Shown: one piece after another, positions 4,845 to 18,063 of the stretch | How positions within the stretch are numbered: position 1 is the stretch's first letter | Layout: the number at the start of each line of letters is the position of its first letter | Assembly (NCBI RefSeq): GCF_964194155.1 | Contig: NC_135897.1 | Coordinates: 83,948,001-84,012,000 of the forward strand | Direction: 5' to 3' | Source: Cetorhinus maximus | Lineage: Eukaryota | Length of the DNA stretch: 64,000 nt | Notes under the pieces: model-generated | What the model was told of the DNA's origin: nothing | Databases searched by the model: none | The model's input: only the letters and a program-made list of their open reading frames with translations | Position numbers and translations under genes: made by a program

Positions 4845-5040
4845 TCCCACCCACCCCGCCTTAAACCAGCTTATATTTCACCTCTTTTCTATTTTTCCTT
4901 AGTTCTGTTGAAGAGTCATACGGACTCGAGACGTTAGCTGTTTTCCTCTCCGCAGATGCTGTCAGACCTGCTGAGTTTTTCCAGCTATTTTTATTTTTGT
5001 TTTGGATTTCCAGCATCCGCAGTTTTTTTGCTTTTATCTT
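4845..5040 (+). mobile_element. Penelope-like element 3' end with minimal hammerhead-like motif
   Basis: CTGTTGA-A-GAGTC atacg GACTC-GAGA-CGTT at 4905-4935, followed by CAGATGCTGTCAGACCTGCTGAGTTTTTCCAG..GATTTCCAGCATCCGCAG, shared with 7718, 11088 and 17545. Confidence 0.7.
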
Positions 5041-7717: not shown

Positions 7718-7922
7718 AGTAAAAACAATAAGTGCTGGAAAGAGTCAGAAGCTCTGGCAGCATCTGTGGGGAGAGAAACAGAGTAAACATTTCGAGTCGA
7801 CTATGGCTTCTTTGGAACATATTGGACATCAGTCATATTGGATCCGAAACATTAATGCCACAGACGCTGCCAGACCTGTGCTTTTCCAGCATTTTCTTTT
7901 TTTATTTCAGATTTCCAGCATC
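7718..7922. mobile_element. Older fold-back Penelope-derived mini-element
   Basis: TGCTGGAAA..TCTGGCAGCATCTGTGG..TTTCGAGTC on the left is inverted relative to CGAAAC..CCACAGACGCTGCCAGAC..TTTCCAGCA on the right. Confidence 0.65.
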
Positions 7923-13230: not shown

Positions 13231-13371
13231 GAGAGAGGGAAGGTAGTGAGGGCTGGCTGTGAAATGTGAAGCCTCCTGCAGACAATAGTGATGCAAAGGG
13301 TTATATCCAAGGGAGGAAGACACAATGAAAACATGTCACCGCAGACCCTGCTAGAGGCGGAAGGGGCTTAC

Positions 13372-13875
13372 CTTGCAGGGGAAGAGCACAGCCGAAGCCA
13401 CTTTCTCCATGGCCAGGTTGCGAATGCTGGGGGTGAGGGAGCCCCTGCAGGTCGGGCAACAGGTCAACTTCTGCCGGCAGGTGTTGCACACCAAATGCCC
13501 GGCCTGGCATTGCAGGATCGGCGGCAGGACGTAGTCGAAGCAGACGGGGCACTCGAAGAGCGAGGTCAGTTCCTGAGCGGCGGCGGCGGCGGCAGCAGCG
13601 GCGGCGGCTGCCGCTGCCGCCACGGCCGCCGCCTGGTGATGGTGGAGCGGCGGAGGGGGAGAAGCGACACCGGCACCGATGATCGCCGCCGTCCCGCAGC
13701 CGCCCACGGCCCCGGCGGCGGTCCCGGCGGCGGCAACAGGGACGGCGGAAGAAGATGAAGAGGAAGCCGCTGCTGCGACCGCCGCCGACAGGCCGCTGGG
13801 GGCCGGGGACGGTGCCGTGTGCTTGCCGGTTTTGCCCCCGCCGCTGCCCGCTCCGGCCGGTGGAGGGTGGCTCAT
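13372..13875 (-). CDS. SIAH2: E3 ubiquitin-protein ligase SIAH2, coding exon 1 (168 codons; low-complexity N-terminus plus RING finger)
   Basis: cagccATG at 13875; [67 protein letters not shown] nearly identical to vertebrate SIAH2 as recalled; phase-0 donor AAG|GTAAG at 13371, the known SIAH2 intron position; exon 2 (YATTGC...) not found in the window. Confidence 0.97.
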
Positions 13876-15479: not shown

Positions 15480-16600
15480 TTAGACCATAAGATGTAGGAG
15501 CAGAAGTAGGCCATTCGGCCCATCGAGTCTGCTCTGCCATTTGGTGAGATTATGGCTGATCTGATAATCCTCAACTCCACTTTCCTGCCTTTTCCCCATA
15601 ACCATTGATTCCCTTACTGATTAAAAATCTGCCTATCTCAGCCTTGAATATACTTAACCACCCAACCTCCACAGCCCCCTGCGGTAAAGAATTCCACGGA
15701 TTCACTACCCTCTGAGGGAAGAAATACCTCCCCATCTCTGTCTTAAATGGGCAACCCCTCACTGTGAGATTATGTCCTCTGGTCCTAGACTCTCCCACAA
15801 GGGGAAACAACCTCTCAGCATCTACCCTGTAAAGCCCCCTAAAAATCTTATATGTTTCAATAAGGTCGCCTCTCATTCTTCTAAACTCCAATGAGTACAG
15901 GCCCAACATACTCAACCTCTCCTCATAAGAAAGCCCCTCCGTACCTGGGATCAACCTAGTGAACCTTCTCTGGACTGCCTCCAATGCCAGTGTATCTTTC
16001 CTTAGATAAGGGGACCAAAATTGTTCACAGTATCCTAGGTGTGGTCTAACTAGTGCCTTGTATAGTTTTAGCAAGACTTCCCTATTTTGGTACTCTGTTC
16101 CTTTTGAAATAAAATCCAACATTCCATTTGCCTTCCCTATTACCTGCTGAACTTGTATGTTAGCTTTTTGGGATTCATGCACGAGGACTCCCAAATCCCT
16201 TTGTGCTGCAGCTTTTTGCAATCTTTCTCCATTTAAATAATATTCAGTTCCTCTATTCTTCCCGCCAAAATGCATAACCTCGTATTTTCCCACATTATAT
16301 TCCATCTGCCAAGTTTTTGCCCACTCATTTAACCTGTTTATATCCCTCTGTAGACTCTTTGTGTCATCCTCACCACTTGCCTTCCCACCTATTTCTGTGT
16401 CATCCGCAAACTTAGCAATAGTACATTCACTTCCCTCATCTAAGTCATTAATATATATTGTAAATAATTGTGGCCCTAGCACTGATCCCTGTGGCACTCC
16501 AGGTTGCCATCCTGAAAATGCCCCCTTATCCCAACTCTCTGTCTTTTATTAGTTAGCCAATCCTCTATCCATGCTAATATACTACTTCCAACACCATGCG
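15480..16600 (-). mobile_element. Young 5'-truncated CR1 LINE
   Basis: Uninterrupted 308-aa ORF (15571-16497): [43 protein letters not shown], plus intact 3' UTR. Confidence 0.95.
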
Positions 16601-17012: not shown

Positions 17013-17504
17013 CGATGGGGTGTGATAGAACAATAAAAGAGTTGTTGAATAATCAAGGGAATCAATCTCTATAAATTAGACCCAGGCATAAAGTGAGGAA
17101 AACACTAGTGATGGAGAACTTTAACCATAGATTCAAAGTCAACTTTTACTCCCAAATATTGTACACTTATCTCATGTCACATCTCAAATTGCTCAGAAAC
17201 TCTTCTCAAATTTTTATTTTCTGACAGAAACACATCCAATTTACATCTGAATGGGTCAATACCAATTGCTGCCATTGTCTCCGAAGGGAATCTGTTTCAT
17301 AAATGGGCCAAACAGTGAAACCATGTTTCTGCAGATTAGCTTTAAATTTAAGTGCAGGGTGCAAATTTTGATTCTTCTGTTCTGGATATAATGAACTAGT
17401 GAACAGTCTACATCATATCGTCCCTTTGGAATTCTAAGAACACATATCATATCATGTCTCAACTTTCTACTTTCCAGAGATTTTCTATTCTTCAGGGCTT
17501 CAAC

Positions 17505-18063
17505 TCAAAAATCAAGGCTGACACTCCAGGGCAGCACTAAGAGAGAAACATAAATACCTGGAAAAACTCAGCAGGTCTGGCAGCATCGGCGGAGAAGAAA
17601 AGAGTTGACGTTTCGAGTCCTCATGACCCTTCAACAGAAACGTCAACTCTTTTCTTCTCTGCCGATGCTGCCAGACCTGCTGAGTTTTTCCAGGTATTTC
17701 TGTTTTTGTTTTGGATTTCCAGCATCCGCAGTTTTTTGTTTTTATCAGCACTAAGAGACTGCTGCACTGTTGGAGGTGCCGTCTTTCAGATGAGACGTTC
17801 AACTGATGCAAAAGATCCAATGACACTATTTTGAAGAAGTTATCCCGGTGTCCTGACCAATATTTGTCCCTTAATCAACATCACTAATACAGTTCATCTG
17901 GTCATTATCACGTTGCTGTTTGTGGGCATTTGCTGAGAACAAATTAGCTGCCAAGCTTCTGACGTTACAACAGTGACTTCCCTTCAAAGAGTACTTCATT
18001 GTCTATAAAGCACTTCGCAATGTCTGGTGGTCATGCAAAGCGCTATATAAATGCAAGTCTTTC
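17505..18063 (+). mobile_element. Deu-domain SINE interrupted by a fold-back element
   Basis: AATCAAGGCTGACACTCCAG..[insert]..GCTGCACTGTTGGAGGTGCCGTCTTTCAGATGAGACG..GCGCTATATAAATGCAAG. Confidence 0.8.
17545..17745. mobile_element. Young fold-back Penelope-derived mini-element with hammerhead-like loop and 13-bp TSD
   Basis: 69-bp inverted arms (17546-17614 and 17637-17705, 67/69 match); TSD CAGCACTAAGAGA at 17532-17544 and 17746-17758. Confidence 0.85.

What the first reader, a model, noticed from the sequence alone, without database searches (positions are those of the whole stretch)
17532..17758. Fold-back Penelope-derived mini-element with a variant minimal hammerhead ribozyme in its loop and a 13-bp TSD
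Seen: a ~200-bp insert splits a Deu-SINE, is flanked by a perfect CAGCACTAAGAGA duplication and has 69-bp inverted arms (67/69). The minus strand through the loop reads CUGUUGA-A-GGGUC augag GACUC-GAAA-CG-UC-AACU. Established: Penelope-like elements carry minimal type I hammerheads (CUGANGA/stem II/GAAA/palindromic short stem III/NUH) thought to act as dimers. Inference: this is a recently mobile non-autonomous PLE derivative, and its arms would sequester the GAAACGUC cleavage site in a long hairpin, possibly switching the ribozyme off. This is the best candidate here for an under-described system.
Basis: partly seen in the sequence, partly recalled or inferred. Interest (0 to 1): 0.7.

Follow-up and report, generated by a model that had tools for sequence, protein, structure and literature searches.

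The report
Mirror-image Penelope retroelement stump
This 200-base hairpin is one of thousands of mirror-image stumps left by a Penelope-type jumping gene, likely built afresh as it landed by copying the same RNA end twice; it is ordinary in itself, but the family's copies show a strict one-tail rule and a changed ribozyme letter that would help test how these elements insert.

Summary
The anatomy is real: a 200-bp insert (17546-17745), 67/69 arms, 22-nt loop, 40-nt one-sided tail, a 14-bp target duplication (13 perfect), inside a SINE-like repeat; a relative's orthologous site is empty. It is not a non-autonomous mini-family. Its exact junction occurs at 17 sites, against 12,432 exact ribozyme-core matches, in several subfamily backgrounds, either arm order, and once on an ORF-bearing copy. 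The parent is an autonomous RT+GIY-YIG Penelope-like element with a Neptune-type linker. Of 141 sampled insertions, 74 are resolved head-to-head inversions with 66 distinct breakpoint pairs among 67 simple ones; 70 of 74 have the tail on exactly one arm. Inverted copy plus one-sided tail is a published PLE structure. Likely mechanism: two primings, one per cut strand, at two start sites of the same RNA. The hammerhead has U instead of A6, a family-wide trait (31 A6 versus 12,432 U/C6), and is buried in the hairpin in silico: a by-product, not a switch. Cleavage untested. This scan noted both points earlier on other shark DNA.

The parts
17532..17545 (+). left copy of target-site duplication (13 bp perfect, 14 bp with the ancestral G at 17545)
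17546..17639 (-). tail-less 5'-truncated pLTR copy (from 2 nt before hammerhead C3 to +91); holds the loop and one arm
   Evidence: 96.8% over 94 nt to full-length element L151
17603..17641 (-). minimal type I hammerhead motif, A6U core, extra A before stem II, 5-bp stem II, ACGU palindrome; C3 at 17637, C17 at 17607; stem I broken by the junction
   Evidence: cleavage untested
17637..17639 (.). 3-nt microhomology (GAA/TTC) at the head-to-head junction
   Evidence: both copies cover these bases
17637..17745 (+). tail-bearing 5'-truncated pLTR copy (from hammerhead G12, +23, to the tail end, about +132); holds only the 3' half of the ribozyme
   Evidence: 95.5% over 110 nt to L151
17706..17745 (+). 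one-sided PLE tail (40 nt without partner arm)
   Evidence: tail concept PMC8557442, PMC11167929
17746..17759 (+). right copy of target-site duplication (last base changed)
17490..17545 (+). left part of the interrupted older SINE-like repeat (Deu/SacSINE1 name recalled)
17746..18060 (+). right part of the interrupted SINE-like repeat, 72-83% to other copies

Best explanation
The insert is the smallest size class of head-to-head insertions of an autonomous Penelope-like retroelement, and it was likely built at this site in one event: the element's protein likely cut both target strands 14 bases apart and copied the same RNA end twice, once from each cut. Shown: two truncated pLTR copies back to back, one ending at about +91 and one at about +132 (the tail), joined on 3 nt of microhomology, with a duplication and an empty orthologous site. 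Inferred: the two outer ends are the two reverse-transcription start sites; a protein dimer uses one site per strand, coupled; both cDNAs run toward the RNA 5' end near the ribozyme's start and their 3' ends anneal. The copy encodes nothing and is likely dead. Its hammerhead is inherited cargo: A6U core, broken stem I, predicted locked in the hairpin, and likely uncut on the RNA that was copied. Confidence 0.9 for 'one-off inverted PLE stump', about 0.55 for the coupled two-priming mechanism.
For: Parent: L151 is pLTR-958 aa frame-pLTR with Pfam RVT_1 (E 1e-5) and GIY-YIG (E 7e-4), both just under the curated cut-offs. Copy numbers: 12,432 core, 41,421 downstream-motif matches; exact junction 7 strict, 20 relaxed = 17 sites. 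Census: 74 resolved inversions of 141 insertions, 136-2,499 bp for the 67 simple ones, 66 distinct breakpoint pairs; duplications of 13-17 bp in 66 of 74 (one 20 bp, 7 none) versus 1 of 74 in a shifted control. Tail on exactly one arm in 70 of 74 (Fisher p 9e-16), while single-orientation copies end at the tail in 28 of 61. The arm reaching further 5' is the tail arm in 24, the tail-less arm in 30, equal in 13 of 67. Arms differ at 4.7% of family-polymorphic positions within an insertion versus 42.6% between insertions, and share 34 rare variants (100 are on one arm only). 57 of 68 arms cross the cleavage site intact; 3 end at it. In vitro, a PLE protein nicks and extends both strands, starts at two sites bounding the tail, is predicted dimeric and does not need ribozyme cleavage (PMC11167929).
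Against: No biochemical test. PMC11167929 saw no difference in start site between strands and did not show coupling; it studied a Poseidon, not a Neptune-type element. 4 of 74 break the one-tail rule. The junction recurs at 17 sites, so a small amount of re-mobilisation is not excluded. Arm identity could partly come from later gene conversion. Boundaries are BLAST ends (up to about 10 nt overshoot); the sample is the first matches along contig C1, not random. The empty-site contig gives only 20 letters beyond the site, under the tool's 31-letter bridging rule.
Confidence: 0.8

Rival explanations
1. Same element, but the mirror arm arises by self-priming (fold-back) of one strand, possibly an antisense template as proposed in PMC3846280, and the tail is left by endonuclease resolution.
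For: Arms come from the same template lineage; inner ends are correlated (rho 0.49) and equal within 3 nt in 13 of 67; published model and resolution idea (PMC8557442).
Against: A single fold-back ties the loop to one arm type; the loop lies on the tail arm in 24 and on the tail-less arm in 30 (p 0.5 against 50:50), and in the window on the tail-less arm, which cannot template the 40 extra bases. It would need resolution cuts of both polarities.
Confidence: 0.25
2. A non-autonomous fold-back mini-element that is transcribed and moved as a unit, its arms silencing the ribozyme.
For: 17 sites share the junction, most of them about 190-225 bp with duplications; core and cleavage site are paired with probability near 1 and freeing them costs about 17 kcal/mol.
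Against: Those 17 carry four different subfamily 8-mers, matched on both arms in most, three position 6/7 states, outer ends from +20 to +431, reversed tail order in one, an ORF in one; they are about 0.1% of core matches; the junction joins a 5'-end hot spot to a 3-nt microhomology.
Confidence: 0.06
3. Two independent insertions, or a later inversion or recombination between two copies, made the palindrome.
For: One sampled case (L040) has two tails and two haplotypes.
Against: One duplication frames both arms here and in 67 of 74 sampled inversions; arms share haplotypes; the orthologue is empty.
Confidence: 0.03

Closest known systems
EN+ Penelope-like insertions with inverted 5'-truncated copy, one-sided tail and TSD (PMC8557442 passages; Pen2a_Av in PMC3846280 passages; D. 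virilis Penelope, PMC2377424 passages)
   Same: Head-to-head inverted pLTR, 30-40 bp tail on one end, target duplication, hammerhead in the pLTR, RT plus C-terminal GIY-YIG parent.
   Different: Here only pLTR remains (200 bp, no ORF); duplications 13-17 bp against 8-10 bp in the rotifer examples; parent has the Neptune-type CX4CX2C linker.
Minimal type I hammerheads of metazoan PLEs (PMC4209133, parts 1-2 of 4 read)
   Same: Extra base between 9 and 10.1, G10.1-C11.1, 4-bp stem I in the parent, palindromic 15-16 region; that paper also notes paired motifs on opposite strands 100-700 bp apart.
   Different: Position 6 is U or C instead of A throughout this subfamily; in the window copy stem I is broken.
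Poseidon PAc in vitro system (PMC11167929, parts 1-2 of 4 read)
   Same: Two RT start sites bounding the tail; both strands extended; uncleaved RNA is the template.
   Different: Coupled use of one site per strand is inferred here from genomic copies and was not reported there.
L1 twin priming (5' inversion; passages of bioRxiv 10.1101/2024.12.14.628481)
   Same: Two cDNAs primed from opposite target strands and joined.
   Different: L1's two pieces cover adjacent parts of the RNA; here they overlap, which gives a palindrome.
Non-LTR retrozymes (bioRxiv 10.64898/2026.07.22.740005, part 1 of 5 read)
   Same: PLE-derived, hammerhead-bearing, non-coding.
   Different: Retrozymes are head-to-tail tandem units; this is a dispersed head-to-head pair.

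Membership tests
EN+ Penelope-like element | Single ORF with RT and C-terminal GIY-YIG between pLTRs (parent) | tested here: met
   L151 958 aa, RVT_1 and GIY-YIG hits slightly under curated cut-offs, ribozyme-bearing repeat on both sides; L123 likewise
EN+ Penelope-like element | Insert is pLTR sequence | tested here: met
   95-97% to L151 pLTR
EN+ Penelope-like element | Inverted truncated copy, one-sided 30-40 bp tail, TSD | tested here: met
Neptune clade | CX2-5CxxC linker between RT and EN | tested here: met
   present in 12 of 20 ORF-bearing loci, the other 8 gave no pattern match; criterion from PMC8557442
Neptune clade | RT tree placement (Neptune versus Nematis) | not tested
   no reference RT set held
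Minimal type I hammerhead | Core C3 U4 G5 A6 N7 G8 A9 | tested here: not met
   U6; family 12,432 Y6Y7 versus 31 A6 and 7 G6
Minimal type I hammerhead | G12 A13 A14, A15-U16, H17, G10.1-C11.1, palindromic stem III | tested here: met
Minimal type I hammerhead | Stem II kept by covariation | tested here: met
   G-U to A-U in the sister subfamily and U-A to C-G in 6 motifs; counts are of copies, not events
Minimal type I hammerhead | Stem I | tested here: not met
   4 bp in parent; third pair broken in the window copy
Minimal type I hammerhead | Self-cleavage (monomer or dimer) | not testable with these tools
   needs assay
Non-autonomous mini-element family | Many copies with fixed ends and fixed internal junction from one master | tested here: not met
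Non-LTR retrozyme | Tandem units each with a hammerhead | tested here: not met
   single head-to-head insert
Deu-SINE (SacSINE1) host repeat | Match to Deu domain consensus | not tested
   repeat and its interruption shown; name recalled; PMC5499810 passages gave no sequence

The most novel reading that the evidence does not exclude
Penelope-like elements insert by overlapping twin priming: a protein dimer on one RNA primes one target strand at the inner start site and the other at the tail site, the second enzyme displacing the first cDNA, which explains inverted repeats, the one-sided tail and the duplication in one stroke; and this lineage made over 12,000 copies after losing the invariant A6 of its hammerhead while keeping the stems, so the motif now serves as a fold or a metal-tuned slow ribozyme rather than a required cutter.
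Probability: 0.45. Interest if true: 0.62.

Novelty: new member of a known kind. Interest (0 to 1): 0.3.

Why it matters
The locus itself is an ordinary dead stump 3.7 kb upstream of a SIAH-type gene start. Its family is useful: how PLEs make inverted repeats and tails is still open in the papers read, and thousands of young copies give sharp constraints (70 of 74 one-tail, either arm longer, same template) that can be tested in the existing in vitro system. The fixed A6U/C core gives a natural test of whether PLE hammerheads must cut at all.

Tried and rejected
Rfam: no hammerhead family; MIR8643 and others are hairpin look-alikes below gathering score. PDB sequence search of the parent protein: 0 hits. 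Empty allele within the same species: not seen, contigs of runs X1 and X3 enter the insert with no differences; absence is not proven. Cleavage-site pile-up of 5' ends: not seen (3 of 68). Cofold of two parent motifs did not return the hammerhead dimer as the lowest-energy fold; not informative for tertiary structure. Lunse et al. (RNA Biol 14:1499) on PLE hammerhead variants is not held and may list U6 cores; supplements of the papers were not opened and may do so too. Searches for an A6U core and for a two-cDNA model of PLE inversion found none in the held library; one search listed 15 of 29 hits. Sequence look-up in earlier scan notes was blank.

Full report
Observation. The window (G000:C20, 3.99 Gb genome; shark-like by recalled repeat content) holds a 13-bp direct repeat at 17532 and 17746 and an inverted repeat between them. 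Arms 17546-17614 and 17637-17705 match at 67 of 69; a 22-nt loop lies between; 17706-17745 has no partner. The minus strand folds at -130 kcal/mol, z -21. The flanks join into an older abundant repeat: 13 of 19 relatives align across the site (9,991 first-look candidates). In a related organism (run X5, with the same 676-nt contig in X10 and X15) the orthologous flank differs at 15 of 296 letters, passes one copy of the duplication plus G, and goes on with 20 letters equal to window 17760-17779. That is an empty site, though 20 letters are under the tool's bridging rule. It also shows that the duplication is likely 14 bp and the insert 200 bp.

Parent element. A 36-nt ribozyme-core pattern has 12,432 exact matches and a 33-nt downstream pattern 41,421 (reversed controls 0). 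Upstream of long copies lies an ORF with RVT_1 and GIY-YIG matches. Twenty copies with the ORF 5' end (97-98% to the query) include L151: pLTR, 958-aa open frame, pLTR, 12-bp duplication. A CX4CX2C linker precedes the endonuclease in 12 of 20, the Neptune/Nematis mark named in PMC8557442 (passages). The insert is two pieces of this pLTR: one from 2 nt before hammerhead C3 to +91 on the minus strand, one from G12 (+23) to the tail end (about +132) on the plus strand, overlapping on 3 nt.

Is it a mini-family? The first search returned look-alikes because it ranks by likeness. Counting says otherwise: the strict junction occurs 7 times and a relaxed one 20 times, 4 of them one duplicated segment on C4, so 17 sites. 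These carry different subfamily letters, usually the same on both arms of a copy; outer ends vary; L265 has the tail on the other arm; L081/L249 runs on into 1.5 kb of ORF and ends in a pLTR with one duplication. A master mini-element cannot easily give this; recurrent joining at a 3-nt microhomology next to a 5'-end hot spot can.

Census. I mapped 141 insertions: 86 from the 100 places listed (10 were second arms, 4 not fetched) and 55 from the 100 listed (70 held; 7 second arms and 8 duplicates dropped; 30 not fetched). All lie in the first 27 Mb of contig C1. Result: 74 resolved inversions, 57 single-orientation, 10 unresolved or off the edge. The 67 two-piece inversions span 136-2,499 bp, 31 of them 260 bp or less, with 66 distinct inner breakpoint pairs. 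Outer ends fall in two peaks, about +90 to +104 and +125 to +139. In 70 of 74 exactly one arm has the tail (1 both, 3 neither; p 9e-16), while single-orientation copies end at the tail in 28 of 61, so independent choice would give about half. Duplications of 10 bp or more frame 67 of 74 (13-17 bp in 66), against 1 of 74 in a shifted control. The arm reaching further 5' is the tail arm in 24, the other in 30, equal in 13; inner ends correlate (rho 0.49). Arms of one insertion differ at 18 of 383 family-polymorphic positions (4.7%) against 42.6% between insertions and 2.2% at invariant positions; 34 rare variants are shared by both arms and 100 are not. Inner ends pile up at -12 to +1 (35 of 120 in set A, which is biased to reach -2; 12 of 68 in set B, with 3 in the bin upstream and 9 downstream), at a TCAGTT that resembles an initiator (recalled consensus; untested).

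Mechanism. Published: PLE insertions often carry an inverted truncated copy and a 30-40 bp tail at one end (PMC8557442; PMC3846280; PMC2377424; passages). PMC3846280 proposes self-priming on an antisense template. PMC11167929 shows both strands nicked and extended, two start sites bounding the tail, a predicted dimer, and insertion without ribozyme cleavage. My inference: each cut strand primes at one of the two sites on the same RNA or sibling RNAs; both cDNAs run 5'-ward, stop, and anneal. This explains the single duplication, the one-tail rule, shared haplotypes and either arm being longer. One fold-back does not explain the 30 cases, the window among them, where the tail arm is not the loop arm. 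None of this was tested biochemically, and 4 of 74 cases break the rule.

Ribozyme. The parent motif has a 4-bp stem I, the extra base before stem II, a 5-bp stem II, GAAA and an ACGU palindrome, all as in PMC4209133. Position 6 is the exception: with the rest of the pattern fixed, 12,432 matches have pyrimidines at 6 and 7, 31 have A6 and 7 have G6; all motifs found in the 20 young ORF-bearing loci that belong to this subfamily read U6 or C6. A sister pattern with GUU at the cut site has 20,191 matches, 4,888 with A6, so A6 was likely lost inside this lineage while stem II was kept. A6C lowers activity in Mg2+ and favours Mn2+ (PMC7151607; PMC3088659; passages); I found no A6U data, and Lunse et al. 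was not available. In the window copy the junction breaks stem I, C3 pairs with G12, and G12 to the cut site are paired with probability near 1; freeing the core costs about 17 kcal/mol. 57 of 68 arms cross the cut site intact, so the copied RNA was mostly uncut or re-ligated.

Context. A Sina RING exon lies at 13351-13875 on the minus strand in a GC-rich stretch; the insert is about 3.7 kb upstream. Transcription of the insert was not tested.

Verdict. Real, young, ordinary: a minimal inverted insertion of a Neptune-type PLE. The family-level regularities are the interesting part. After my tests were done, the scan's notes showed the same readings on other shark DNA (525 notes hold the search words); they are unchecked AI notes and add no support.

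Noticed in passing
window 13351-13875 (-): Coding exon with Sina RING (E 1e-16) and long poly-Ala N-terminus in a 73% GC stretch; looks like SIAH2 exon 1 (paralogue name recalled).
   Followed up: partly
window 15571-16545 (-): 324-aa frame with an RVT_1 match (E 1.5e-10), likely a LINE fragment.
   Followed up: no
window 4846-5039 and 7738-7798: Older remnants of the same PLE pLTR family (86% and 81% to L151).
   Followed up: no
L151, 5' end of the element; census: Full-length copy begins about 10 nt before hammerhead C3, at a TCAGTT initiator-like word where many arms end; a second cluster of ends lies at -27 to -40.
   Followed up: partly
L081 (G000:C3:26.687 Mb): Same junction as the window at the 5' end of an internally deleted ORF copy closed by a pLTR and a 14-bp duplication.
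   Followed up: yes
L012-L015 (G000:C4:90.2-90.6 Mb): Four identical copies with identical flanks 125-140 kb apart: a recent segmental array or an assembly repeat.
   Followed up: no
L040 (G000:C1:2.68 Mb): Only sampled inversion with two tails; its arms are of different subfamilies and no duplication was found.
   Followed up: partly
genome-wide: Sister subfamily with GUU at the cut site (20,191 matches), 24% with canonical A6: a series for dating the loss of A6.
   Followed up: partly
window 17553-17698: Scores E 1.7e-13 against a microRNA precursor model (below gathering score); such stumps could be mis-annotated as microRNA hairpins or feed small-RNA pathways if transcribed.
   Followed up: no
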